Part shown: one piece after another, positions 12,493 through 24,668 of the stretch
Position numbering within the stretch: position 1 is the first letter of the stretch
Layout of the letters: each line of letters begins with the position of its first letter
DNA from: a virus
Length of the DNA: 43,744 nt
Virus record (IMG/VR): IMGVR_UViG_3300044693_000291
Strand: one strand, 5' to 3'
Made by a program: the position numbers and the translations under genes
The notes under the pieces: model-generated
Database searches by the model: none
The model's input: only the letters and a program-made list of their open reading frames with translations
Told to the model about the DNA's origin: nothing

Positions 12493-14718
12493 TTAAAATG
12501 GTTCTAAATCAGGAAATGCCGGCGGTGGTGCAGCCTGTATGCCGGCCGCTGGGTTTTTCTTTTCGTGTACGTAGTATACCCGGCTGGTTTTGCCCTCCAC
12601 CTTCTTTATGTGCTGCCGGTAGCCCAGCCGTTTAAGTTCCTGCCCTACTTTGTTTAAGTTGGTTTTCTGGTTACTGTATTTATCGAGCTGCTCCTTTATT
12701 TTGCCAGCGGTAAGCTCTGATACCCCAATACCGGGGCCTTTAGCGGCTTCAAAGTATTCGTTAATAAGGTCATACTCAAGGGAATAGTCAATGAACTTAT
12801 CATTGCGTTCGCCCAGCGTTTCAATGTCTTTGCCCAATATCTCCCACTCGTACCCAGCGTGGTACATGCGGAAAAGTTCAGCCCACATGGCATCCCGGTC
12901 TATTGTATTCATCTTGGCATAATCTACGTAATCAACATGCACCGGGATAATACGCCGGTTACCCGTTGGGTCGTTCAATATATCCAACTCGTTGCATGTT
13001 CCGCCCAGCGAGGCCAACCGTTTAAGTTCTTGGCTACTGCGCCCATATGGCAACCGTATGGTAAACGTGTCTTTATCCGTCAGGGCCTTCAATCGCTTTT
13101 GCTCTTTCTTGTTCTTGCCATCGAACTCATCGTCCATTATAAGCACCTTATTACACATAAGTATATCGTCGTCTTTTCCGCCATCCAATTTACTTTCCGT
13201 ATAATAATCTGCCGGGCTGCGCCATGCCCCGGGCAGCAGCCTGCGGAACACCCGGGTTTTGCCCGTACCGTGGCGCTCTCCTGCCAGCACCAGCACCAGC
13301 GGAGAGGGGCTGCCGTATATGCTGCTAACAATGCCTACTAACCACTTTGTGCCAAAATATACCATGCGTTCATAATCCTGCGCATCGCCCTGTAGGTGTA
13401 TGCAGGACCAAAACTGGTCTATTTCGCCACTGTAGCTACGGTCTTTGTTATCCTGCCACCAGTCCAGAAAAGGGTTATACTCCGGTATGTTATTGCTAAA
13501 AATACACCGGCTAAACATATCGAAATTTAAGTCATCGAAAACCTTCTTGGCCTGTAAAAAGATGGAGTTAAGATCTCGGTCTGTCAACGATTTGCCGCTG
13601 TTTTCCAGCCGCAGCGTTACAAGGTTGTGGCGAAGGTTATAATTACTGCGCAGCCACGTTAACAGTGCATCAATGTCGTTATCATCTGGCTGTATATCAT
13701 TGTCGTACGCCTGTTTAACAATGTGCTCGCTATCTGCTGCGCTAATGCCGGCAAATTGCTCGAGGTTCTTCATGATCGTGGGTATGTCCTGCCCGCCTTT
13801 CTTTAGGCTGGCAGTAACACCCATAACCTTTTTCGTTGTAGGGCTGGCAATGCTTATACCGGCTTGCTTCGCGTAGTAGTAGATTGTGCTTAGTGTGGCC
13901 TTCTGCCCGTGCCACTCCTTATCATGTTTAAGCGCCACCGTATACTGTTTATCGCAAACGTCAGGCGTATATTTTGCGGATATGGCGCTAAGGGCATGAA
14001 AGTACTGACGGCCAGATTCGCCAAACTTATGGCACAATGCAAAGCATACACGCAACCAATCCCGGTAATCCTCGCAGCAGCTTACGCCACGTTCCACCAT
14101 TTGGCGTACGATGTCGTCGAACTCATTTTGCACAAACACAACCGGAGGCGGCGCTGCCTTCTTTTCTTTGGGAAGGTACTTCTTCCACTGCTTTGCGTTT
14201 TCGTTAACGTGCAGGTAGGGGTCGTACGACACAAACCGAGGGCGGCTTACGTTTATACCCGTGGGGTCTACCGGCTGCTTATACTTCTTCAGGTAGTAAT
14301 CGGCAATTGCCAAATACGCATCTCGGTGCCTATCCGGCTCAATGCGTATAATTACGCACAGGCCATAACCGCTGCAACTTACAAAGACGGCATAAGTGAA
14401 CTCGTCTTTTATTAGCATCTCTTTAACGGCGTTAACCTGTGTGCCTAAATCGTCAATGTCTATGCCAATATAACCGCTGTGCAGCACCAGCCTATCGTCG
14501 TACCTTGTATCAAACGTACCGCTAAGGGTAACGCTGGGCAGCTTGTCTTTTAACTTATCACGCTCTTTTTTGTCACGCTGCGCCCGTATAGGGATTATCA
14601 GGTCTTGCCATGTACCCGTTTTTACGTTTTCAAGGAATATATCGAACGGAATAACGGATCGGCTGTCTATATTCCAGATGTTGGGATACAGACCCAAGTT
14701 CGGTGAAGTCATAGGCAA
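12493..14718 (-). CDS. DNA primase-helicase, VirE / BT4734-N-terminal type (741 aa)
   Basis: The N-terminal domain resembles Bacteroidota VirE_N/BT4734 primase-like regions. The C-terminal P-loop is VLAGERHGTGKTRVF, with a downstream hydrophobic run plus DDE (VLIMDDEFDG). It is the largest replication-module gene. Confidence 0.7.
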   Translation of the reverse strand: MPMTSPNLGLYPNIWNIDSRSVIPFDIFLENVKTGTWQDLIIPIRAQRDKKERDKLKDKLPSVTLSGTFDTRYDDRLVLHSGYIGIDIDDLGTQVNAVKEMLIKDEFTYAVFVSCSGYGLCVIIRIEPDRHRDAYLAIADYYLKKYKQPVDPTGINVSRPRFVSYDPYLHVNENAKQWKKYLPKEKKAAPPPVVFVQNEFDDIVRQMVERGVSCCEDYRDWLRVCFALCHKFGESGRQYFHALSAISAKYTPDVCDKQYTVALKHDKEWHGQKATLSTIYYYAKQAGISIASPTTKKVMGVTASLKKGGQDIPTIMKNLEQFAGISAADSEHIVKQAYDNDIQPDDNDIDALLTWLRSNYNLRHNLVTLRLENSGKSLTDRDLNSIFLQAKKVFDDLNFDMFSRCIFSNNIPEYNPFLDWWQDNKDRSYSGEIDQFWSCIHLQGDAQDYERMVYFGTKWLVGIVSSIYGSPSPLVLVLAGERHGTGKTRVFRRLLPGAWRSPADYYTESKLDGGKDDDILMCNKVLIMDDEFDGKNKKEQKRLKALTDKDTFTIRLPYGRSSQELKRLASLGGTCNELDILNDPTGNRRIIPVHVDYVDYAKMNTIDRDAMWAELFRMYHAGYEWEILGKDIETLGERNDKFIDYSLEYDLINEYFEAAKGPGIGVSELTAGKIKEQLDKYSNQKTNLNKVGQELKRLGYRQHIKKVEGKTSRVYYVHEKKNPAAGIQAAPPPAFPDLEPF

Positions 14719-14723
14719 CTAAA

Positions 14724-15194
14724 TTAATCGATGTAGTCAATAGTAACAAAATTGATTTTGTCGGGATTGTTGCCCTGCCGTAAATAATTAATACCCAACG
14801 GCACCAGCCAGTTAAGGTTCGTAATTATATTCGGCGGCAGTGCTGCGCACGGCACCCACTGTACTAACTCATCGGTTAACGATTTTGCCTCACCATGTTG
14901 TTTTTCGTCGTAAATGCCAGCGAATATAAGCACCCGGTAATTGCTATCACCGTTGTATATGGTGCCAACGCTGCTCCAGACAAAGGTTGGAATTTTTAAG
15001 CCGGTTTCTTCCTTGAACTCGCGGCTTACGCTAATGCGCGGCGGTTCTCCCGGTTCTATTTTGCCACCGGGGAAATTATAGTAACCAGCTTGCCATTTTG
15101 GGCGTGTCTTTTTAAGTAGTAGTACGCTACGAAAGTCTTCGCTATAAAGCATACCTATGGTATACTCAAGGAAATCAGGCTTCTCGGTATTCAT
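14724..15194 (-). CDS. Nudix hydrolase
   Basis: It carries a complete Nudix box: GGKIEPGEPPRISVSREFKEETGL (GX5EX7REUXEEXGU). Confidence 0.85.
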   Translation of the reverse strand: MNTEKPDFLEYTIGMLYSEDFRSVLLLKKTRPKWQAGYYNFPGGKIEPGEPPRISVSREFKEETGLKIPTFVWSSVGTIYNGDSNYRVLIFAGIYDEKQHGEAKSLTDELVQWVPCAALPPNIITNLNWLVPLGINYLRQGNNPDKINFVTIDYID

Positions 15195-15195
15195 C

Positions 15196-16740
15196 TCAGT
15201 TTGGGTTTACATTGTTTTGCCAGTCCGGGAAATGCTCCCGTAGTTTACGGAATAAGTGTTCCTGTGCGCGGTCCCGGTGCCATTGGTTGTACTTTTTACC
15301 AACCTCCGTACACCACTCTGCCGCTTTCACATGGTACTGCTGCAATATAAATGCAGCGTTTTCATCTGTCATCTTTGGCACCACCTGTTTTGCATTTTTT
15401 GCCAGTGTGTCGCCAATTTGAAAAAACGGGTAATACTCCTTCCGGTGTTTGTTATTGGCTATTACAGCCTTAACGTCAATGCCTTTGGTTATTACCACAA
15501 ATTCGGCCAGTTCCTTTTCTGCATCCTCTGGTTTACGGGGGAATTCGTATCCACAGTGGGGGCATACCCGTACCTGCGCTGCCACAATTGCATCGCATTG
15601 CGGGCAATCTTTTACCGGGGCATTACCCTTGTTATCGCCGGGCCGTGGGGGATTGAAGAATATGTTTTCCCAGTCCCGGGGATCGCACCAATCACCATGC
15701 ACCAGCGCATTGCCGCCCATGTCTATTATGAAAAACGCATTCTTTGCCAGTGTTGGCCTGCCGCCACGGCCACACATTTGCAGCCATAGGGGCAGCGACA
15801 TGGTGCTGCGGTTTATTATAACTGCCTCTATCGTTGGTTCATCAAACCCGGTGGTAGCAATACCCACGTTACACAATATTGCCCCGGGGGTGTGCTTAAA
15901 CCACTGGAAGATAGCATCGCGCTCTGCCTGCGGCGTTGTGCCATCTACATGCCGGCAATCATATCCCTTTTCACGGAAGGCAGCGGTTACCTTTAACGAG
16001 TGATCGATATTGCAGTTAAAGATAATGGCTTTGGTGCCCGGTGCGTACTTTTCGTATGCCGTAACGGTATTCTGTATGTGCTTTGGTTTGCTGAAACTCA
16101 AGGCCATTAGGCCCTCGTCGAATTCACCGTTCTTTATCTTAAGTTCGCCCCGGTCTACCGTATCCTTCGGGTTAAAGGTTACGTTTTGGCACAGCCCGCG
16201 CTCTGGCTTGGTTTTGTTTAGATTTATCAGCTCCGGTATATCCACCCCGCATACTATGTCCTGATAGTAGTTTTTGAGCGGGTCTTTTTTACTGGCAGCC
16301 AGTGGCGTGGCTGTAAACCCAACCACAAAGGCAGTCGGGAAGTGTTTATGTATTTTGTTAAAGTTTGCAATATGGCACTCATCTATTATCACTAAACCTA
16401 CCTTATCCATTATGCGGTCGATACGCCGGTTAACGCTCTCCACCATGCCCACGTATACCGGCGCATCCGGCACCGTACGCATGCCTGCAATAATCGGCTG
16501 GCTTACTATACCAAAACCGTTATATAGCGTGCGCCGGGTTTGCAGCAGCAACTCCTTCCGGTGAACCAGTATTAGCACACTCTTTTTTGCCTTAACGGTG
16601 TACCGCTGGCATATGGCGCTAAATACCACCGTTTTGCCGCCACCAGTAGCCAGTTGGAATATTACATTCTTTTGGCCGCTGGCGAGTTTTTGCCCAACCC
16701 GATAAACGCCTGATTCCTGATATGGTTCCAGCGTTATCAT
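15196..16740 (-). CDS. Superfamily 2 DEAD/DEAH-type helicase with a C-terminal zinc ribbon
   Basis: Motif I is LATGGGKT, motif II IIDECH, motif III GFTATP and motif VI QMCGRGGR. The zinc ribbon is CPQCDAIV...VCPHCGYEF. Confidence 0.8.
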   Translation of the reverse strand: MITLEPYQESGVYRVGQKLASGQKNVIFQLATGGGKTVVFSAICQRYTVKAKKSVLILVHRKELLLQTRRTLYNGFGIVSQPIIAGMRTVPDAPVYVGMVESVNRRIDRIMDKVGLVIIDECHIANFNKIHKHFPTAFVVGFTATPLAASKKDPLKNYYQDIVCGVDIPELINLNKTKPERGLCQNVTFNPKDTVDRGELKIKNGEFDEGLMALSFSKPKHIQNTVTAYEKYAPGTKAIIFNCNIDHSLKVTAAFREKGYDCRHVDGTTPQAERDAIFQWFKHTPGAILCNVGIATTGFDEPTIEAVIINRSTMSLPLWLQMCGRGGRPTLAKNAFFIIDMGGNALVHGDWCDPRDWENIFFNPPRPGDNKGNAPVKDCPQCDAIVAAQVRVCPHCGYEFPRKPEDAEKELAEFVVITKGIDVKAVIANNKHRKEYYPFFQIGDTLAKNAKQVVPKMTDENAAFILQQYHVKAAEWCTEVGKKYNQWHRDRAQEHLFRKLREHFPDWQNNVNPN

Positions 16741-17066
16741 TGGACGCCTTTTAATTGTTGTATACGTCTGTTAAGATACCACGCTGCTTTCTCTAAATCC
16801 TCTATCTCTTTTTTTGGGTCTTTTTTGCCAGCCCGGCTAATGTATTTTATGGCATTACCCAAACAAAAGTCCAGCCGCCACGCCTCTATAACTTTTATGG
16901 CCTCGTACGTATATAAGCTGCCGCCATAATGTTCCGGGTGGTTTACCTGATCATATGCAGCAGGCTTTAGATGGTTCATCTTTTGCCATGTTTTGCATTG
17001 CAAATCGCAATAAGGTTTACGGTCTTCGCATATACAGGAAGGATAATTGCCTTTGCTAATATCCAT
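16737..17066 (-). CDS. DUF3310 family phage protein
   Basis: VNHPEHYGG...YEAIKVIEAW...FCLGNAIKYISRAGKK...EDLEKAAWYL matches the DUF3310 signature. Confidence 0.65.
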   Translation of the reverse strand: MDISKGNYPSCICEDRKPYCDLQCKTWQKMNHLKPAAYDQVNHPEHYGGSLYTYEAIKVIEAWRLDFCLGNAIKYISRAGKKDPKKEIEDLEKAAWYLNRRIQQLKGVQ

Positions 17067-17067
17067 G

Positions 17068-17445
17068 CTAAAGTTTTTTAATTGGTAATAGATACATTTT
17101 TGCAGTAATTCGCACCGGGTATCGGGAGTATGGCGGCTGGGTAGATATCAGTTCCATTAGTTCGGTGTCCTTACGCATCAATTCGGCAAAAATATGATTG
17201 CTAAAGCTGGTGGCTATCTCGCGCCTACGCTGCCAATCGGCTTCATCCGGGTGTAGGTTGCGCCACTCGGCCTCCATTGGGTCGAATTCGTGTTCGAATT
17301 TTAACTCAACCGGGGTAATTTGCCCGGTTACCCGGATAATGCTTTTAACTGGCCGGTGCTGCATTTTGGCGTGCATAATAACTATTACGCCAATAAGGGC
17401 CAGTATAACGGCCAGCAGGATGCAAATTATTTGTGTGTCTGTCAT
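17068..17445 (-). CDS. Membrane-anchored hypothetical protein (125 aa)
   Basis: There is one N-terminal transmembrane helix (IICILLAVILALIGVIVIM). The gene overlaps the upstream methyltransferase gene by 4 nt. Confidence 0.55.
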   Translation of the reverse strand: MTDTQIICILLAVILALIGVIVIMHAKMQHRPVKSIIRVTGQITPVELKFEHEFDPMEAEWRNLHPDEADWQRRREIATSFSNHIFAELMRKDTELMELISTQPPYSRYPVRITAKMYLLPIKKL

Positions 17446-18326
17446 GGTTTTATAAAGATTAATACGTTTTCGTGGATTTTTACAAGTTTCTTATTACCGC
17501 GCAGAAAAGTGTTGTTAACACGCAACTGCGCAGTGCCAATGGGTTGCAGCAGTATGGCCTCATTATACAACTTTGTACCTGCATCTATAAACGCCTGCTT
17601 TGTATGGCTTACAAAATCCCTGTAATATCCTTTCTCGTCACGCATATCCCCAACCACAAAAATGGCAAAGCCGCCCGGCTTAAGTAGATATACGCATTTC
17701 TGTATTATGCTGCGGTAGGCTGCCATAAACTCCCGGTAGTCCATATTGCTAATATCACCGGGCAAATCACTGTACACCTCCAAATCAGCGTAAGGCGGGC
17801 AGCTAAATACAACATCATACTCGCAGCCCAGTGCAGCAAGGCAGTCAAGGAATACGTTACTATCCCCCACATGCCACTCCGGCTGCGGCTTATCTGCCGG
17901 CAATATCTCCTGCGCCTGCCGCCGGTTGCTTAATACCTGTTCTTCGCGGATGTCTATTCCCGTGTATCTATACCCCAGATAATTAGCAACCAAACCACGA
18001 ACGCTGCCTCCAGCAAAGGGGTCAATAATCTGGCCGCCCTCGGGGCAGTACCAACGGTACAGCAACTCGCACAGCGCTGGGTCGAAGATTGATACCTCGG
18101 ACATTGCTTCCTCTGCCGTCCTGCCATACTTTTCGCTGAAAAAAGATGAACCATATGTTTTAACCTCCTCCCTGCTTTCTTCGCTTTTTATTCCTTTAGC
18201 CTTCCATGCTTTTTTTCTTTTTACCCAGCTACCTGAACGGGCGTCCAGCACAGAAAACGGGGGTTCTATGAATTTATCACGGAGTAGCGGGTCGCTGCTA
18301 ATCTCCTCGCCAAACAAATCAGTCAT
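17442..18326 (-). CDS. SAM-dependent DNA methyltransferase (N6-adenine / N4-cytosine type)
   Basis: The SAM-binding motif is IIDPFAGGSVRG and the catalytic (S/C)PPY-type motif is FSCPPYADL. An N-terminal EPPFSVLD segment is typical of phage N6_N4 methylases. Confidence 0.7.
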   Translation of the reverse strand: MTDLFGEEISSDPLLRDKFIEPPFSVLDARSGSWVKRKKAWKAKGIKSEESREEVKTYGSSFFSEKYGRTAEEAMSEVSIFDPALCELLYRWYCPEGGQIIDPFAGGSVRGLVANYLGYRYTGIDIREEQVLSNRRQAQEILPADKPQPEWHVGDSNVFLDCLAALGCEYDVVFSCPPYADLEVYSDLPGDISNMDYREFMAAYRSIIQKCVYLLKPGGFAIFVVGDMRDEKGYYRDFVSHTKQAFIDAGTKLYNEAILLQPIGTAQLRVNNTFLRGNKKLVKIHENVLIFIKP

Positions 18327-18333
18327 ATAATAA

Positions 18334-19092
18334 TCAGGGTTTTAAGTAGGATTGTCTAATACCAACGCACCACATAAGGTCGCCTGCTTGCAAAAACTCT
18401 TGGCATTTTGCCTCATAAACCGGGTCAAGCGTAAAAGGTATATCTAAGTATGTAGGTACATAATCATCGTAGGCTTCCCGTGGCGCTACTAAGGTACACA
18501 TAAATTGCCAGCCCATTGGTGCCCATCGTGTTAAACGCTTACGCGGGTCTGCGCCAACCATAACGCCAATTACGTGAAGGTTGGGGCGAAACAATTTAAC
18601 ACCATGCAGCACACCGGCCAAACTCATACCGCCGCCCACTGGCATAACTATCCGCTTTACCTCCCGGGGTACATTCCGCACCTGCGCCATAGTTTCTACC
18701 ACTGCAAAGTCGTGCTCCATTCCAAACGGTATATCTGTATATCCGGTCTGGAAAGCATACTCTTTGCTGCGGCTGGTAATTACATTGTTATACCCAGCCT
18801 TGTGCTGTATTATAAAGCACCCAGCCTCGCGTGCCAATTCAAGTTCTTTGTTAAGCGCCCCCGTTGGTGTATGTGCAACACATGGCAGCCCTAAATGCTT
18901 TGCTATGTTTGCCACAATATTAACCTGTGGGCTGCTACGGCTGCCTGCGGTAGTTAAACCAACTTTGGCATCCTTTGCCAGTGCGTAGCAGGTGCGCACC
19001 TTGCCACCCCTTACGCCGGCTATTTCGAAGAGATCGTCGCGCTTAAACCAGTAAGCGCCATGTTTTTCAACGGGGGTTAATTCAGTAGCCAT
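18334..19092 (-). CDS. PLP-dependent fold-type II enzyme, ACC deaminase / D-cysteine desulfhydrase-like (252 aa)
   Basis: WFKRDDLFEIAGVRGGKVRTCYAL parallels KRDDl...GGNK.RKLE, which holds the PLP lysine. AGSRSSPQVNIVANIAKHLGLPC parallels G..QSNH.r..A..Aa.lGl.c. There is also a Gly-rich loop, MPVGGGMSLAG. Confidence 0.6.
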   Translation of the reverse strand: MATELTPVEKHGAYWFKRDDLFEIAGVRGGKVRTCYALAKDAKVGLTTAGSRSSPQVNIVANIAKHLGLPCVAHTPTGALNKELELAREAGCFIIQHKAGYNNVITSRSKEYAFQTGYTDIPFGMEHDFAVVETMAQVRNVPREVKRIVMPVGGGMSLAGVLHGVKLFRPNLHVIGVMVGADPRKRLTRWAPMGWQFMCTLVAPREAYDDYVPTYLDIPFTLDPVYEAKCQEFLQAGDLMWCVGIRQSYLKP

Positions 19093-19106: not shown

Positions 19107-19148
19107 ATATGCCGGGTAACGGGTTTGCTACCCGGCATATTTGTTTTT
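19107..19148 (+). terminator. Perfect 12-bp hairpin with the T-tract on the plus strand only (antisense-oriented terminator or structural element)
   Basis: ATATGCCGGGTA (19107-19118), loop acgggtttgc, TACCCGGCATAT (19129-19140), then ttgttttt. On the minus strand the hairpin is followed by aaattacc, so there is no U-tract. Confidence 0.4.
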
Positions 19149-19512
19149 AGAATGGTAGATCGTCGTTTGCCTGTGGCGGTGTAAACGTACCACCAGCAGC
19201 GGCGTCATTGGGTGCAGCCCCGGGCAAATCAAACTCACCGGCCTTCGCAGGTTCATTCTTACTTTTTTGCACCCTGCCATTACCTATGTACACATCCTTT
19301 CCGCCGTTCATTGCCTTATCCTTCTCTCTGCCATCCTTGCTGCTGTTAAGCTGTACGCTTACCTGCTTCCAGTCCGGGTCTTTCTCCGGGTCTACCCATA
19401 TGGTTACGTTGGCATAATAATGCTGGTTTTTGTCGCTACGGGAGCAACTGGTGTGCCCCTTCTTTAGCTGTTCTACCAGCGTGGTTACGTCAATACTTGC
19501 GTTAAGTATCAT
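19147..19512 (-). CDS. SSB-like single-stranded DNA-binding protein candidate (121 aa) with a canonical acidic C-terminal tip
   Basis: The C-terminus ...PPQANDDLPF mimics the bacterial SSB tip DDDIPF, preceded by a Gly/Ala/Pro-rich linker. The N-terminal domain does not look like a classical OB-fold SSB. It sits in the replication module. Confidence 0.5.
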   Translation of the reverse strand: MILNASIDVTTLVEQLKKGHTSCSRSDKNQHYYANVTIWVDPEKDPDWKQVSVQLNSSKDGREKDKAMNGGKDVYIGNGRVQKSKNEPAKAGEFDLPGAAPNDAAAGGTFTPPQANDDLPF

Positions 19513-19910
19513 TATTTTACCTCCTCTTTTGTTTCTTCGGTTATGGGTGAAAGGTCGGCCAAATCAAGGTCGGCAGGAGGCGCGCTGTCTATTACATTGG
19601 CGCGGTCAACGCCTGCATTAATCTGCGCATCAGCAGGGATAACAGTTGTGGTAACTGCATGCTCCTTATCGCCTTTTACCTTGAAATGCACCAATGCAAA
19701 GCCCGGGTTTAGGCCCTTTACCTTGTGCTGGGCGCTGGTAATTGTAAGCTCCAGTTCCTTGCCGGTAAACGCTTTTTTATCATCGCGTTCCTGCAAAATA
19801 AGGCGGTCGCCCGTTACAACCGGCGTACGCACTTTTCTGATCTCGCTGGTAATATCGCCATTAAGTACGGCGCTGAAATAATCGGTAGTTACTACATCCG
19901 TGTGTGTCAT
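19512..19910 (-). CDS. ASCH / DUF3850-like (PUA-fold) protein with an acidic tail
   Basis: DYFSAVLNGDITSEIRKVRTPVVTGDRLILQERDDKKAFTGKELELTIT resembles the DUF3850 pattern (F..i..G.KtfEiR.ndR.f.vGD.l.L.E.....yTGr.l). Confidence 0.4.
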   Translation of the reverse strand: MTHTDVVTTDYFSAVLNGDITSEIRKVRTPVVTGDRLILQERDDKKAFTGKELELTITSAQHKVKGLNPGFALVHFKVKGDKEHAVTTTVIPADAQINAGVDRANVIDSAPPADLDLADLSPITEETKEEVK

Positions 19911-20223: not shown

Positions 20224-21426
20224 TTATATTATTATGCGCAGGCCCTTCGGGCTCCGTGCGCGGCTTAATGCTACATATGTCTGCCCACGCTGAAAGGTTG
20301 GGCGGCGTAAATCAACCGTAACCTCGTCAAATGTAAGGCCCTGCGCCTTGTGTATTGTTAAGGCGTATGCCAGCTTAATAGGGTATTGTACCACCTTACC
20401 AATCTCCTCCAACACCAGTTTATCCAGTTTACTATCGTAAACGTATTGCTTTTTAGTAACCTCCGCAGGTCCCAACGGCCACTCAACGCCATTAACCTGT
20501 ATAAAGTGGTTCCCATCCCGGTGCCTAAATACACCTATGGTGCCATTACGCAGCGGCGCATCCCGGCTATTAATAAGGTACATTATCTTACAACCATCTT
20601 TAACCCGCACGGTTTTCTCGAAGGGCAAGTCCTCTATTTTCATCTTGCCTTCTATTTCTGCCTCAAACACAAACTCCTCGCCCGGCTGCGCTTTTAACCC
20701 AGCAGTATTATACTCTGCCACAGTATTATTGTGTGGTGCAAGTATTATGCCCGCTGCCTCTTTGGTTACAAACTGCTTAAAATACTCGGCCTTACCGCCC
20801 TCGCGCACGATGTTAAGGGCTGCAATGAAATCGGGGTCGCTTTGGCGCATTATTTCATCGAGTTCAATATGGCGCAGGTTGATTTTTTTAAGGATTTTGG
20901 CAAATAGAAAGGTATCGCCGGTATAAGTTTGATACAGCACGGATTTTGTGTTGTCGTCGTATATAGGTGGCAACTGTTTGAGATCGCCAACAAAAACTAA
21001 TTGGCGTTTATCCAGCCCGGCCAAACCGTTTTTAATTAATGTATAGTGCATGGCATCCAGTACATCCGGGCGCAGCATACTCACCTCATCTATAATACAC
21101 ACATCTATTTTGCCCAGCACCATGCGCGTGTTCATCTTGACGTAATGGCATGCCTCAAAGTCCAGCACACCATACGGGCTAAGTTTGAACATACTATGAA
21201 TGGTCTGCCCGTTGATGTTATTGGCGGCTATGCCTGTGGGCGCTATCGCCACAACATTGCGCCCCAATTGGGTAAGTTCTTTTATAATCTCGTTTACTAT
21301 AAAACTCTTGCCAGTACCTGCCTTACCAGTAAGGTAAACGCTTTCGCCGCTGAGTACTGCTACCCTGAATTCTTGTTGTTTCTCTGTTAACATGGTTTGC
21401 CGTATTGTTTTACCACCTGCCGCCAA
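20224..21426 (-). CDS. Pif1/RecD-like SF1 DNA helicase
   Basis: Walker A is LTGKAGTGKS and Walker B is CIIDEVSM. The C-terminal AYALTIHKAQGLTFDEV and YVALSRARSPKGL are hallmarks of the Pif1/RecD family. A more likely start is MLTEKQ at 21393. Confidence 0.8.
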   Translation of the reverse strand: MAAGGKTIRQTMLTEKQQEFRVAVLSGESVYLTGKAGTGKSFIVNEIIKELTQLGRNVVAIAPTGIAANNINGQTIHSMFKLSPYGVLDFEACHYVKMNTRMVLGKIDVCIIDEVSMLRPDVLDAMHYTLIKNGLAGLDKRQLVFVGDLKQLPPIYDDNTKSVLYQTYTGDTFLFAKILKKINLRHIELDEIMRQSDPDFIAALNIVREGGKAEYFKQFVTKEAAGIILAPHNNTVAEYNTAGLKAQPGEEFVFEAEIEGKMKIEDLPFEKTVRVKDGCKIMYLINSRDAPLRNGTIGVFRHRDGNHFIQVNGVEWPLGPAEVTKKQYVYDSKLDKLVLEEIGKVVQYPIKLAYALTIHKAQGLTFDEVTVDLRRPTFQRGQTYVALSRARSPKGLRIII

Positions 21427-23951: not shown

Positions 23952-24668
23952 TTAAAAGTCAATAGGTGCATCCAAATCTACCGGCGGCGCAGTGTCGCCT
24001 TCAACGGGTGCAAAGAAATCGGCCTCAAACTTCGGCGCAGCAGCATCCACCTTTATTTCAGGTGTTACCACTACCGGGGCCGGCGGCGGCGTTACAACGG
24101 TTGGCGCTGGTGCCGGTGCCGGTATTTTAGGCGTATCTATAACCTCCGGCTTTTCACCCTTATATGGGTCTTCCTTGAACGCCGGGTTAAACTCGAGCGC
24201 CTCTTTACGGCTAACGTTACGGCCAAACAATGCGCCAATATGCTCGGCGGCATCCTTAATTGCGTAGCTTACAGCAGCAGGCGCAGCCAGTTGTATGGCA
24301 TTATTTTTAATGGCCGCCAAATCACTGGCAGCCTTGCCGGCATCTGTTTGCACAGGCATTGCGCCGGTGCCATCGTGAAAGTCCCACTCGTTAGTTGCTG
24401 GGTTGTAATAATGCAGGCGTATAACCGCAACAACGCTGTTAAATAGTGGCGCTATGGTTTTAATATCTACGCGCCATTGGCCGCATATGCGGTCGAGCAG
24501 GTACTCGATCTTCTCAATGGGCAAATACTGCACCGGGGCCATTGGGTGTTTCTTTAACCACGATGCCGGTGGCGGCTGGTTTACCAGCGTTTTAAACCTG
24601 TCTTGCTTCCATGCATCCGGGTTTTCGTTATGCAGCTCGGAAAGTGTAGGCAGTTGTCTTTGTTCCAT
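23952..24668 (-). CDS. Rad52-superfamily single-strand annealing protein (Sak/DUF1071-like)
   Basis: VQYLPIEKIEYLLDRICGQWRVDI resembles the yl....v...LD..fG..W motif of phage Rad52-like annealases. The tail is Pro/Ala/Val-rich. Confidence 0.5.
   Translation of the reverse strand: MEQRQLPTLSELHNENPDAWKQDRFKTLVNQPPPASWLKKHPMAPVQYLPIEKIEYLLDRICGQWRVDIKTIAPLFNSVVAVIRLHYYNPATNEWDFHDGTGAMPVQTDAGKAASDLAAIKNNAIQLAAPAAVSYAIKDAAEHIGALFGRNVSRKEALEFNPAFKEDPYKGEKPEVIDTPKIPAPAPAPTVVTPPPAPVVVTPEIKVDAAAPKFEADFFAPVEGDTAPPVDLDAPIDF

What the first reader, a model, noticed from the sequence alone, without database searches (positions are those of the whole stretch)
17442..19092. ACC-deaminase / D-cysteine-desulfhydrase-like PLP enzyme adjacent to a DNA methyltransferase in the replication module
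ORF 18334..19092 carries the fold-type II PLP signatures of the ACC deaminase family: KRDDL, a GG(N)K.R lysine motif, an S..S/N.. segment and a Gly loop. At 252 aa it looks shorter than the cellular enzymes as I recall them, although I could not compare lengths here. It lies immediately upstream of a SAM-dependent DNA methyltransferase and a small membrane protein, and next to an SSB-like gene. PLP enzymes are known components of phage thymidine hypermodification pathways. Alternatively it could degrade a SAM-derived or sulfur amino-acid metabolite, either as an anti-restriction function or as an auxiliary metabolic function. I see no hydroxymethylase or 5-hmdU kinase, so if it acts on DNA the chemistry would not follow the described routes.
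Basis: partly seen in the sequence, partly recalled or inferred. Interest (0 to 1): 0.65.

Follow-up and report, generated by a model that had tools for sequence, protein, structure and literature searches.

The report
PLP enzyme wedded to phage methyltransferase
A small vitamin-B6 enzyme in this phage is related to enzymes that trim amino acids attached to phage DNA, and in most related phages it is built into the neighbouring DNA methyltransferase, which suggests an undescribed two-part DNA-modification module.

Summary
ORF 18334..19092 (-) is an intact 252-aa fold-type II PLP enzyme (Pfam PALP, AF2 pLDDT 95). Its nearest solved folds are D-Cys desulfhydrase and ACC-deaminase homologues, and it lies 7 nt upstream of an N6/N4-type DNA methyltransferase (17442..18326).

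Two results change the picture.

1. The closest characterised relatives are not metabolic deaminases. They are the phage PLP decarboxylases that act on amino-acid:thymine conjugates in DNA:
- Salmonella phage ViI gp226 (phrog_3650): hhalign 98%, E 4e-14, with our K31 aligned to its PLP lysine K92.
- Pseudomonas phage M6 gp52, more distantly.

2. The link to the methyltransferase is a gene fusion.
- In 60 of 80 viral loci, and in 110 of the 150 best family representatives, the PLP domain is fused to this methyltransferase family.
- It usually sits in one conserved loop of the methyltransferase. A further 14 loci have the methyltransferase within 4.3 kb.
- Cultured examples are Pam4 gp70, Erythrobacter phages R6L and ZS04, and mycobacteriophages Vincenzo and AlanGrant (genes 1-2).

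The canonical 5-hmdU partners (kinase, aGPT-Pplase, hydroxymethylase) are absent.

Best reading (about 0.45): a two-enzyme DNA-modification module in which the PLP enzyme tailors, probably decarboxylates, an amino-acid moiety on DNA, possibly the SAM-derived aminocarboxypropyl group. Main rival: it acts on SAH or SAM. I found no paper describing it.

The parts
18334..19092 (-). 252-aa fold-type II PLP enzyme (the 'PALP' gene), a stand-alone form of a domain that is usually fused to the methyltransferase
   Evidence: Pfam PALP 3.6e-12; phrog_3650 8.8e-28; AF2 pLDDT 95.4; hhalign to ViI gp226 98.2%, E 3.9e-14.
19000..19002 (-). Codon of K31, the predicted PLP (Schiff-base) lysine in GGK31VR
   Evidence: Aligns to DcyD Lys51, ViI gp226 K92 and M6 gp52 K36. 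Present in 149 of 149 aligned representatives. Coordinates checked.
18925..18933 (-). S54-P55-Q56 motif, at the place of the Q-S-N-H/Q substrate loop of DcyD and ACCD
   Evidence: S54 aligns to DcyD Ser78. The SPQ motif is shared with ViI gp226 and Det7 gp191. S54 and Q56 are present in 151 of 151 sequences.
18622..18639 (-). Gly-rich phosphate-binding loop VGGGMS (residues 152-157)
   Evidence: Aligned to the DcyD Gly loop. G153 is present in 151 of 151 sequences.
18412..18417 (-). Y226-E227 of LDPVYEAK: the catalytic Tyr plus a Glu at the position that hydrogen-bonds the PLP pyridine N in true ACC deaminases
   Evidence: Aligns to DcyD Y287-T288 and to ViI gp226 RYEGK. Both residues are present in 150 of 150 aligned sequences. 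The role of Glu295 in ACCD is from PMC3344862.
17442..18326 (-). 294-aa SAM-dependent N6/N4-type DNA methyltransferase-fold enzyme, the partner into which the PALP domain is inserted in most relatives
   Evidence: PF01555 5.8e-12; phrog_12517 1.6e-90; class I MTase fold with unpermuted motif order.
18003..18023 (-). Methyltransferase motif I, DPFAGGS (SAM binding)
   Evidence: for coordinates. The motif is invariant in both PALP-fused and stand-alone family members.
17880..17903 (-). Loop LPADKPQP (residues 142-149) between helix B and strand 3 of the methyltransferase. This is the site where the PALP domain is inserted in the fused forms.
   Evidence: The MTase N-half HMM ends at positions 141-148 and the C-half starts at 2-4 in 72 of the 78 insertion fusions (2-26 in all). 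Median linkers are 10 and 8 aa.
17790..17801 (-). Methyltransferase motif IV with an unusual Cys: C176-P-P-Y, in place of (D/N/S)PP(Y/F)
   Evidence: Aligns to SPPY of 2zie. CPPY is present in all 120 closest homologues.
17068..17445 (-). 125-aa small protein with an N-terminal membrane helix. It overlaps the methyltransferase stop (ATGA), so it is in the same operon. Its relevance is unknown.
   Evidence: No family match. Homologous only in the closest relative, L001.

Best explanation
The 252-aa ORF is an active PLP enzyme. It belongs to the phage branch of the ACC-deaminase / D-Cys-desulfhydrase clade, and this branch contains the DNA-acting decarboxylases ViI gp226 and M6 gp52. It is the functional partner of the adjacent SAM-dependent DNA methyltransferase-fold enzyme, and the two form a two-component DNA-modification module that most relatives encode as a single polypeptide.

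Shown:
- The fold, the conserved PLP lysine and the catalytic Tyr-Glu pair.
- Homology to gp226 and gp52.
- Pervasive fusion or adjacency to this one methyltransferase family.
- Absence of the 5-hmdU pathway enzymes.

Inferred:
- Like its characterised relatives, the enzyme works on an alpha-amino-acid moiety tethered to a base in phage DNA, most likely decarboxylating it to leave a primary amine.
- The most economical source of such a moiety, given a SAM-binding transferase as the only constant partner, is the 3-amino-3-carboxypropyl (acp) part of SAM. Decarboxylation would then yield a 3-aminopropyl base.
- The GNAT domains or FemAB-like genes attached in some phages would then acylate that amine.
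- The biological purpose would be protection of phage DNA from host nucleases.
For: Homology to the DNA-acting decarboxylases:
- The best PHROG is phrog_3650 (8.8e-28), then phrog_7093 (3e-11).
- Det7 gp191, which matches ViI gp226 apart from the latter's 27 extra N-terminal residues, is a full-length member of phrog_3650. M6 gp52 is phrog_7093.
- hhalign of the family profile gives score 101 (E 3.9e-14, 233 columns) against ViI gp226, 73 (E 3.7e-10) against E. coli DcyD and 42 against M6 gp52.
- K31 aligns to the lysines that the authors named as PLP-binding, K92 and K36.
- The motifs SPQ, GYNS.I, QVANIP, YE.K and WIVG are shared with gp226.
- gp226 and gp52 were shown biochemically to decarboxylate O-SerT and C-alpha-GlyT in DNA (PMC8989533).

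Coupling to the methyltransferase:
- Of 80 viral loci, 53 have MTase N-half / PALP / MTase C-half in one frame, 4 have MTase then PALP, 1 has PALP then MTase, 2 are truncated fusions, 14 have the methyltransferase 15-4277 nt away, and 6 have none within about 6 kb.
- Of the 150 best representatives at 50% identity, 110 are fused.
- Pfam confirms the split methyltransferase profile on either side of PALP.
- The arrangement is also seen in cultured phages.
- By contrast, this methyltransferase family occurs in only 27 of 50,697 phage records.

Other support:
- The catalytic residues are near-invariant in the fused forms.
- The only other conserved neighbours are terminase, portal and helicase genes.
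- Context points to further tailoring of an amine on DNA. One contig type has a PALP-GNAT fusion beside the same methyltransferase, a second methyltransferase and Mom. Another has FemAB-like genes and a class I methyltransferase beside PALP.
- The known pathway offers a precedent for fusing a PLP decarboxylase to the enzymes that install its substrate: 5-HMUDK / PLP / aGPT-Pplase fusions.
- The family is basic, with median pI 8.65.
Against: - The methyltransferase moiety looks like an ordinary methyltransferase. The window enzyme is 69% identical to stand-alone homologues whose contigs show no PALP within 6 kb. All SAM and catalytic motifs are identical in 75 PALP-fused and 115 stand-alone members, with only conservative differences. 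If it merely methylates, there is no amino acid on DNA for the PLP enzyme to act on, unless the whole family transfers something other than methyl.
- The PALP insertion loop lies on the face of the Rossmann sheet opposite the SAM site, so the fusion gives no geometric argument for a shared substrate.
- Foldseek places the methyltransferase among generic class I methyltransferases (aTrm11, TrmN, RlmI, PrmA), not acp or aminopropyl transferases.
- gp226 is only about 26% identical, so function may have drifted.
- None of the canonical partners of gp226 and gp52 is present.
- No chemistry was measured.
Confidence: 0.45

Rival explanations
1. Cofactor-level role. The PLP enzyme acts on the amino-acid part of the methyltransferase's own small-molecule ligands. 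It might destroy the inhibitory product SAH by gamma-elimination or deamination, so that methylation of many genome copies is not product-inhibited. Or it might convert SAM, for example by decarboxylation to dcSAM or by lyase action, possibly as anti-restriction.
For: - The methyltransferase is indistinguishable in its motifs from PALP-less relatives. In a plain methyl transfer, SAM and SAH are the only alpha-amino acids present.
- PALP also sits next to unrelated SAM methyltransferases: a Methyltransf_25-type enzyme in L059 and a divergent N6_N4 methyltransferase in Staphylococcus phage Alsa_1.
- One PALP copy accompanies three tandem methyltransferases in L025, and one fused plus one free methyltransferase in L048, as expected for a trans-acting helper.
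- The Glu on the PLP pyridine N suits carbanion or gamma chemistry on a four-carbon amino acid.
- Phage SAM-cleaving enzymes are an established counter-defence.
Against: - The nearest characterised relatives act on DNA-tethered amino acids, not free metabolites.
- I found no PLP-dependent SAH- or SAM-cleaving enzyme in the literature searched.
- The ACCD/DcyD clade prefers D- or achiral substrates, whereas SAM and SAH are L.
- Destroying SAM next to a SAM-requiring enzyme is self-defeating.
- The GNAT, Mom and FemAB-like contexts are not explained.
Confidence: 0.25
2. The PLP enzyme tailors an amino acid on DNA, but a different enzyme puts that amino acid there (host or phage, for example an aminoacyl-tRNA-dependent transferase). 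The methyltransferase is fused only because DNA-modifying enzymes are co-localised on phage DNA, often through the N-terminal ParB domain.
For: - ParB domains head many of the fusions. One representative is ParB + PALP without a recognisable methyltransferase.
- Mom is now known to use glycyl-tRNA to modify adenine, and it lies in the same island as a PALP-GNAT gene.
- Six of 80 loci have PALP without this methyltransferase. Their neighbours include a ThyX-like gene plus NUDIX, and FemAB-like genes.
Against: - No other gene is conserved next to the fusion.
- The window and its relatives have no candidate transferase.
- An insertion into one precise loop of one methyltransferase family, kept across 495 or more clusters, argues for a specific partnership.
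Confidence: 0.1
3. An ordinary auxiliary metabolic enzyme (ACC deaminase, D-cysteine desulfhydrase, or Ser/Thr dehydratase) that reshapes host amino-acid or sulfur metabolism and is unrelated to DNA.
For: - The solved structures most similar in fold are DcyD, ACCD homologues and IlvA.
- Database names such as 'ACC deaminase/D-cysteine desulfhydrase-like' and 'carboxylate deaminase' point this way.
Against: - It fails every curated NCBIfam cut-off by more than 10-fold, for example ACC_deam 15.9 against 392 and DcyD 25 against 429.
- It is about 75 aa shorter than DcyD.
- It is essentially confined to viral contigs: only 10 hits among 185,579 species genomes, nearly all of them MAG contigs.
- It is fused into a DNA methyltransferase.
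Confidence: 0.03
4. A member of the canonical thymidine hypermodification pathway: 5-hmdU made pre-replicatively, then 5-HMUDK, then aGPT-Pplase, then the PLP decarboxylase.
For: Homology to ViI gp226 and M6 gp52.
Against: - phmmer with M6 gp51, gp53, gp54 and gp58 and ViI gp243 and gp247 finds nothing in the window or in about 100 related loci.
- Pfam and PHROG scans of the replication module show no thymidylate-synthase-like or P-loop kinase gene.
- The DUF3310 protein matches only the non-kinase end of the 'nucleotide kinase' PHROGs.
Confidence: 0.02
5. A non-catalytic or selfish insertion. Phage methylases are known targets of inteins and homing-endonuclease-like inserts.
For: Insertion elements in actinophage methylases are documented (PMC9957025).
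Against: - The PLP lysine, Ser, Tyr, Glu and Gly loop are conserved in at least 99% of 150 divergent representatives.
- The domain also exists as a free gene, and as N- and C-terminal fusions.
- There are no intein or endonuclease motifs.
Confidence: 0.02

Closest known systems
Salmonella phage ViI gp226 (YP_004327553; phrog_3650), the PLP-dependent decarboxylase that converts O-serinyl-thymidine in DNA to 5-(2-aminoethoxy)methyl-dU
   Same: - Same fold-type II ACCD-like clade.
- hhalign 98.2%, E 3.9e-14 over 233 columns, with K31 aligned to K92.
- Shared SPQ, GYNS.I, QVANIP, YE.K and WIVG motifs.
- Mycobacteriophage Vincenzo gp2, which sits beside the same methyltransferase family, is itself a phrog_3650 member (2.7e-106).
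   Different: - Only about 26% identity, and 424 aa against 252 aa.
- gp226 works with 5-hmdU kinases and an aGPT-Pplase on thymidine. None of these is present here.
- gp226 is not linked to a methyltransferase.
Pseudomonas phage M6 gp52 (YP_001294560; phrog_7093), the PLP-dependent decarboxylase that converts C-alpha-glycinyl-thymidine in DNA to 5-(2-aminoethyl)-dU
   Same: - Similar short length (278 aa).
- Alignable end to end (5-238 to 2-258), with K31 aligned to K36 and an acidic residue after the catalytic Tyr.
- The window protein hits phrog_7093 at 3e-11.
   Different: - More distant than DcyD by hhalign (score 42 against 73).
- It is embedded in the aGPT-Pplase / radical-SAM / kinase cluster.
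D-cysteine desulfhydrase (StDCyD 4d8t; E. coli DcyD) and ACC deaminases (1tzk, 1f2d, 1j0a)
   Same: - Best solved-structure matches, with TM 0.7-0.77.
- The PLP Lys, Ser78 and Tyr287/294 equivalents are present.
- Like true ACC deaminases, it has Gln at the His80/Gln80 position and Glu after the Tyr, with no Thr at the Thr315 position.
   Different: - About 21% identity and about 75 residues shorter.
- Gly, not Asn, precedes the lysine.
- SPQ replaces SN(H/Q).
- It fails all curated family cut-offs.
- It is viral and fused to a DNA methyltransferase.
SAM-dependent aminocarboxypropyl transferases on nucleic acids (Tyw2, Tsr3, TapT) and the SpeD / spermidine-synthase pair. This is a comparison of mechanism only, based on my own knowledge.
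   Same: They show that SAM-binding enzymes, some with the methyltransferase fold, can donate the acp or aminopropyl part of SAM rather than the methyl group. That is the step the hypothesis needs.
   Different: - No sequence or structural affinity of the window methyltransferase to these enzymes was found.
- No acp or aminopropyl base is known in DNA.
Fusions of 5-HMUDK, PLP decarboxylase and aGPT-Pplase seen in viral metagenomes (PMC8989533)
   Same: A PLP decarboxylase of this clade is fused to the enzymes that prepare its DNA-bound substrate.
   Different: The partners there are a kinase and a glycosylase-fold transferase. Here the partner is a class I SAM methyltransferase, with the PLP domain inserted inside it.

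Membership tests
Fold-type II PLP enzymes (Pfam PALP, PF00291) | Profile match above the curated gathering score | tested here: met
   46.7 bits against 35.
Fold-type II PLP enzymes (Pfam PALP, PF00291) | Schiff-base lysine and Gly-rich phosphate loop | tested here: met
   K31 aligns to DcyD Lys51, and VGGGMS aligns to the DcyD Gly loop. Both are conserved across the family.
ACC deaminase (AcdS; TIGR01274 / NF010646) | Curated equivalog score | tested here: not met
   15.9 bits against 392, and 21 against 550.
ACC deaminase (AcdS) | Key residues Lys51, Ser78, Tyr295, Glu296 and Leu322 (PMC4048297) | tested here: inconclusive
   The K31, S54, Y226 and E227 equivalents are present. The Leu322 / Thr315 position aligns to G244 (or V243) by my ungapped reading of the C-terminal strand. 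It is not Leu and not Thr, and the alignment there is uncertain.
D-cysteine desulfhydrase (DcyD; NF003030 and related models) | Curated equivalog score, plus Thr288 / Thr315 / His80 | tested here: not met
   25 bits against 429. The positions carry E227, G244 and Q56 instead.
Phage amino-acid:nucleobase PLP decarboxylases (ViI gp226 / phrog_3650; M6 gp52 / phrog_7093) | Sequence homology, including the equivalent PLP lysine | tested here: met
   phrog_3650 8.8e-28 and phrog_7093 3e-11. hhalign 98.2% to gp226 with K31 aligned to K92. PHROG membership of the reference proteins was checked.
Phage amino-acid:nucleobase PLP decarboxylases | Co-occurrence with 5-hmdU DNA kinase, aGPT-Pplase (amino acid:DNA transferase) and dUMP hydroxymethylase | tested here: not met
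   No phmmer hits in the window or in about 100 loci. No such Pfam or PHROG families were found in the scanned ORFs of the replication/early module.
Phage amino-acid:nucleobase PLP decarboxylases | Decarboxylation of an amino acid tethered to a base in polymeric DNA | not testable with these tools
   This needs enzyme assays or nucleoside LC-MS.
N6-adenine / N4-cytosine DNA methyltransferases (PF01555), for the partner gene | Profile match above the gathering score, plus SAM motif I | tested here: met
   46.5 bits against 26.7. DPFAGGS is present. The model has a class I fold.
N6-adenine / N4-cytosine DNA methyltransferases (PF01555), for the partner gene | Catalytic motif IV, (D/N/S)PP(Y/F) | tested here: not met
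   The motif is CPPY. The Cys aligns to the Ser of SPPY in 2zie. CPPY is present in 120 of the 120 closest homologues. I found no characterised member of this CPPY family.
N6-adenine / N4-cytosine DNA methyltransferases, for the partner gene | Transfer of the methyl group of SAM to DNA | not testable with these tools
   No experimental data were found for any family member.

The most novel reading that the evidence does not exclude
The CPPY 'methyltransferase' does not only methylate. It transfers the 3-amino-3-carboxypropyl part of SAM to an exocyclic amine of a DNA base. Alternatively, it transfers aminopropyl from dcSAM made by the PLP enzyme. With the fused PLP decarboxylase, the product would be a 3-aminopropyl base. 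That would be a new, SAM-derived, two-enzyme DNA hypermodification, independent of 5-hmdU and widespread in uncultured phages. PALP-less family members would then leave the acp base untrimmed.
Probability: 0.2. Interest if true: 0.9.

Novelty: new variant of a known kind. Interest (0 to 1): 0.72.

Why it matters
All described phage pathways that use a PLP enzyme on DNA start from 5-hydroxymethyl-dU and need a kinase and a glycosylase-fold transferase. Here the same kind of PLP enzyme is built into a SAM-dependent DNA methyltransferase, with none of those partners. This arrangement is found in at least several hundred sequence clusters of mostly uncultured phages.

If the pair acts on DNA, it defines a new and very compact route to a hypermodified base. 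It could be reconstituted from two genes and used as a tool, and it would matter for phage resistance to restriction and for sequencing artefacts.

If instead the enzyme clears SAH or reshapes SAM, it would be the first PLP-dependent enzyme of that kind and a new way for phages to boost or protect their own methylation.

Either way, a family of more than 7,800 'DNA methylases' with an atypical CPPY catalytic motif has, as far as I could find, no characterised member. Cultured phages that carry the pair (mycobacteriophages Vincenzo and AlanGrant, Pam4, Erythrobacter R6L and ZS04) make the question directly testable.

Tried and rejected
- Megablast of the locus against 50,697 phage records gave no match. 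The phage is not close to any isolate.
- My first working idea was an SAH scavenger. I demoted it after finding that the thymidine-hypermodification decarboxylases belong to the same clade. It is kept as the main rival.
- I at first counted mycobacteriophages AlanGrant and Vincenzo as 'methyltransferase without PALP', because tblastn at E<1e-10 missed their gene 2. A looser search corrected this. The Erythrobacter phage PALP domains were also missed at that threshold and were found through the methyltransferase search. 'PALP-less' calls for other isolates therefore rest on tblastn at E<0.05 only.
- I searched for positions that separate PALP-linked from unlinked methyltransferases. Only conservative changes turned up, plus one F/Y position, so there is no evidence for altered chemistry.
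- Foldseek of the methyltransferase model did not point to acp or aminopropyl transferases. The model is only moderately confident (pLDDT 77).
- Clustering of neighbours for a third conserved partner found only terminase, portal and helicase genes.
- The GNAT domain fused to PALP is not similar to the Mom protein encoded nearby.
- The ~320-aa genes next to stand-alone PALP genes are not one family. One of them (L110) is a divergent member of the same methyltransferase family.
- The ParB-associated methyltransferases M.EcoGIX and M.BceJIII are beta-class DPPY enzymes, not this family.
- Ten literature searches found no description of a PLP-methyltransferase fusion. Iyer et al. 2013 (NAR 41:7635) could not be read and might mention it.
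- The geometry between the PLP and SAM sites could not be measured, because the tools return no coordinates.


Full report
**1. The observation**

The window is a 43.7-kb phage-like contig with almost all genes on the minus strand. It has no close relative among 50,697 phage records.

I verified their coordinates.
- It passes Pfam's PALP threshold, 46.7 bits against 35.
- It has 937 detectable homologues.
- It folds with mean pLDDT 95.4.
- Its best solved-structure matches are Salmonella D-Cys desulfhydrase (E 6e-15, TM 0.75) and the P. horikoshii ACC-deaminase homologue 1j0a (TM 0.77), followed by threonine deaminases and true ACC deaminases.
- It is about 75 residues shorter than E. coli DcyD, which has 328 aa.

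The gene 7 nt downstream (17442..18326) is an N6/N4-type methyltransferase (PF01555; phrog_12517 at 1.6e-90). It is followed, with a 4-nt overlap, by a small protein with an N-terminal membrane helix.

**2. Which PLP enzyme it is**

It does not meet the curated definitions of ACC deaminase, D-Cys desulfhydrase or any dehydratase. All NCBIfam hits are more than ten-fold below their cut-offs.

Its best viral families are phrog_3650 (8.8e-28, 'unknown function') and phrog_7093 (3e-11). The paper on thymidine hypermodification (PMC8989533) reports two points that bear on this:
- The PLP-dependent decarboxylases ViI gp226 and M6 gp52 remove CO2 from serine or glycine already attached to thymine in polymeric DNA.
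- gp226 was modelled on pdb 1j0a, and the predicted PLP lysines are K92 in gp226 and K36 in gp52.

I fetched these genes.
- Det7 gp191, which matches ViI gp226 apart from the latter's 27 extra N-terminal residues, is a full-length member of phrog_3650 (3e-241). M6 gp52 is phrog_7093 (2e-159).
- Profile-to-sequence comparison of the window family gives these results:

| Target | Score | E-value | Aligned columns |
|---|---|---|---|
| ViI gp226 | 101 | 3.9e-14 | 233 |
| E. coli DcyD | 73 | 3.7e-10 | 217 |
| M6 gp52 | 42 | 1.6e-5 | 229 |

- Our K31 falls on K92 of gp226 and on K36 of gp52.
- The family shares with gp226 several motifs that DcyD and ACCD lack: S-P-Q in the substrate loop, GYNS.I, QVANIP and WIVG. 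It also shares a Tyr-Glu pair (LDPVYEAK against LHPRYEGK).
- In true ACC deaminases, the Glu after the catalytic Tyr hydrogen-bonds the PLP pyridine nitrogen and strengthens the electron sink. In DcyD a Thr does this job (PMC3344862). An invariant Glu here (150 of 150) fits chemistry that needs a stabilised carbanion, such as decarboxylation.
- A loose tblastn search recovers 342 phage records, mostly ViI-like Ackermannviridae.

The nearest characterised relatives are therefore DNA-acting decarboxylases.

**3. The link to the methyltransferase**

I fetched 80 viral loci with the family profile. I then scanned their six-frame translations with HMMs of the PALP domain and of the N- and C-halves of the window methyltransferase.

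| Arrangement | Loci (of 80) |
|---|---|
| MTase N-half / PALP / MTase C-half in one open frame | 53 |
| MTase then PALP | 4 |
| PALP then MTase | 1 |
| Fusion truncated by a contig end | 2 |
| Separate methyltransferase gene of the same family, 15-4277 nt away | 14 |
| No methyltransferase within about 6 kb (three of these loci are near-identical) | 6 |

Further points:
- Pfam sees the C-terminal part of the N6_N4_Mtase profile (motif I) before PALP and the N-terminal part (motif IV side) after it.
- An exhaustive profile search of 1.84 billion representatives found 495 clusters at E<1e-30. Of the best 150, 78 are insertions, 19 and 5 are C- or N-terminal fusions, 8 are partial and 40 are PALP-only. 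A few of the PALP-only proteins carry a GNAT or ParB domain.
- The insertion point is essentially constant: methyltransferase HMM positions 141-148 | 2-4 in 72 of the 78 insertion fusions, with median linkers of 10 and 8 residues. In the AF2 model of the window methyltransferase it maps to the loop between helix B and strand 3, residues 142-149.
- The catalytic residues of the PALP domain are kept in at least 99% of these divergent, mostly fused, proteins.
- The arrangement exists in cultured phages. Pseudanabaena phage Pam4 gp70 has 829 aa. Erythrobacter phages ZS04 gp7 and vB_EliS-R6L ORF1 also carry it, although the R6L paper describes ORF1 only as a CcrM-like methylase. In mycobacteriophages Vincenzo and AlanGrant, gene 1 is a ParB-methyltransferase, gene 2 is a 'carboxylate deaminase' (phrog_3650, 2.7e-106), and the terminase genes follow.
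- This methyltransferase family occurs in only 27 of 50,697 phage records, so the association is far beyond chance.
- The family is essentially viral: only 10 hits in 185,579 species genomes, nearly all MAG contigs.
- Apart from the methyltransferase, the conserved neighbours are terminase, portal and helicase genes.
- Single-sequence searches with the known pathway partners find nothing in the window or in any locus. The queries were M6 gp51, gp53, gp54 and gp58 and ViI gp243 and gp247. The scanned ORFs of the window's replication/early module show no thymidylate-synthase-like or kinase gene.

**4. What the partner is**

The methyltransferase has the unpermuted class I order: motif I is DPFAGGS, and motif IV comes after strand 4. 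Motif IV reads CPPY rather than (D/N/S)PP(Y/F).
- CPPY is present in all 120 closest homologues.
- The family is large, with more than 7,800 clusters, and most members are stand-alone.
- Three stand-alone members 64-69% identical to the window enzyme show no PALP within 6 kb.
- Comparing 75 fused with 115 stand-alone sequences shows identical SAM and catalytic motifs and only conservative differences.
- Foldseek places the model among generic class I methyltransferases, including exocyclic-amine (m2G) RNA methyltransferases.
- I found no characterised member. The ParB-associated M.EcoGIX and M.BceJIII are beta-class DPPY enzymes.

**5. Mechanism**

Firmly supported: the ORF is an active PLP enzyme, and it works together with this methyltransferase-fold enzyme. 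The rest is inference.

A PLP enzyme needs a free alpha-amino acid. Its nearest characterised relatives take one that is tethered to a DNA base and decarboxylate it. Such enzymes are known to be fused to the enzymes that install their substrate.

Context in some phages fits an amine on DNA that is tailored further:
- One contig type has a PALP-GNAT fusion next to the same methyltransferase, a second methyltransferase, Mom, ThyA and a dCTP deaminase.
- A jumbo-phage contig has a nucleotidyltransferase, PALP, two FemAB-like genes and a class I methyltransferase.

I therefore favour a two-enzyme DNA-modification module (confidence about 0.45). With a SAM-binding transferase as the only constant partner, the most economical amino-acid donor is the aminocarboxypropyl part of SAM. 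Decarboxylation would then give an aminopropyl base (about 0.2 for this specific chemistry).

The chief objection is that the methyltransferase looks unchanged from its PALP-less relatives. Either the whole CPPY family transfers something unexpected, or it simply methylates and the PLP enzyme acts elsewhere.

That leads to the main rival (about 0.25): the enzyme acts on SAH or SAM. This reading is consistent with the following:
- PALP also lies beside unrelated SAM methyltransferases.
- One PALP copy serves several tandem methyltransferases.
- The insertion site lies on the face of the sheet away from the SAM pocket.

The minor rivals are poorly supported. They are an amino acid installed by another enzyme, an ordinary metabolic deaminase, the canonical 5-hmdU pathway, and a selfish or inactive insert.

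**6. Novelty**

The enzyme belongs to a known kind, the phage ACCD-like PLP enzymes of DNA hypermodification. Its setting is new: it is inserted in a SAM methyltransferase and the 5-hmdU machinery is absent. Ten full-text searches found no description of this. One possibly relevant paper could not be read. Because cultured phages carry the pair, the question is directly testable by nucleoside mass spectrometry.

Noticed in passing
window 17790-17801 (and all homologues P0121-P0240): The partner methyltransferase family has an invariant CPPY in place of the canonical (D/N/S)PP(Y/F) motif IV, plus a conserved N-terminal EPPFSVLDxxxGxWxxRK segment. The family has more than 7,800 clusters, is mostly annotated 'DNA modification methylase', and I found no characterised member.
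   Followed up: partly
window 19147-19512 (-): A 121-aa ORF with no Pfam or PDB match ends in NDDLPF, which resembles the acidic C-terminal tip of bacterial SSB. Only the tail supports that label.
   Followed up: partly
window 19512-19910 (-): A DUF3850 / ASCH-like (PUA-fold) protein lies two genes upstream of the PLP gene and is conserved in the closest relative, L001. Such domains are often discussed as readers of modified bases. It is not conserved in more distant loci.
   Followed up: partly
window 16737-17066 (-): A DUF3310 protein matches only the C-terminal, non-kinase part of several PHROGs labelled 'nucleotide kinase'. It has no P-loop, so it is not a 5-hmdU kinase.
   Followed up: partly
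L101 / L102 6156-14478: Large-phage contigs (90 and 178 kb) carry a DNA-modification island: a methyltransferase of the same family, a PALP-GNAT fusion 4 nt downstream, a second N6_N4 methyltransferase, a Mom homologue, a thymidylate synthase, and further on a dCTP deaminase/dUTPase-like gene (16593-17198). The GNAT domain is not similar to Mom.
   Followed up: partly
L059 4858-9460: A jumbo-phage contig (257 kb) has a nucleotidyltransferase, PALP, a FemAB / LPG_synthase_C-like gene, a class I SAM methyltransferase and a second FemAB-like gene in a row, without the CPPY methyltransferase. This may be a different hypermodification cluster that uses the same PLP enzyme.
   Followed up: no
L029-L031 4588-6753: A weak ThyX-like gene (326 aa), a NUDIX hydrolase and PALP lie in a row, with no methyltransferase within 6 kb. 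A NUDIX gene also lies in the window (14724-15194) and in L001.
   Followed up: no
L025 3914-8725; L048 5473-8101: L025 has three paralogous methyltransferases of the family in tandem, and only the middle one carries the PALP insert. L048 has one fused methyltransferase directly followed by one free methyltransferase.
   Followed up: no
L022 3614-7009; protein P0268: Some fusions carry a second insert after the PALP domain: a Cys-rich segment of about 190 aa with a weak DUF3109-like match.
   Followed up: no
L090 2068-4506 (Erythrobacter phage ZS04 gp7); KY006853 ORF1; L105 1406-2275: Database annotations hide the feature. R6L ORF1 and ZS04 gp7 are called only 'DNA methyltransferase', with the PLP domain unnoticed in the R6L paper. 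Vincenzo and AlanGrant gene 2 is called 'carboxylate deaminase' or 'nucleoside deaminase'. M6 gp52 is still called 'threonine dehydratase' in RefSeq.
   Followed up: yes
window 23952-24668 (-), 20224-21426 (-), 12493-14718 (-): The replication module includes a Rad52-like annealase (weak Pfam hit), a Dda/PIF1-like helicase and a primase-helicase. Several ORFs of 125-383 aa between 21.4 and 29.3 kb have no family match at all.
   Followed up: no
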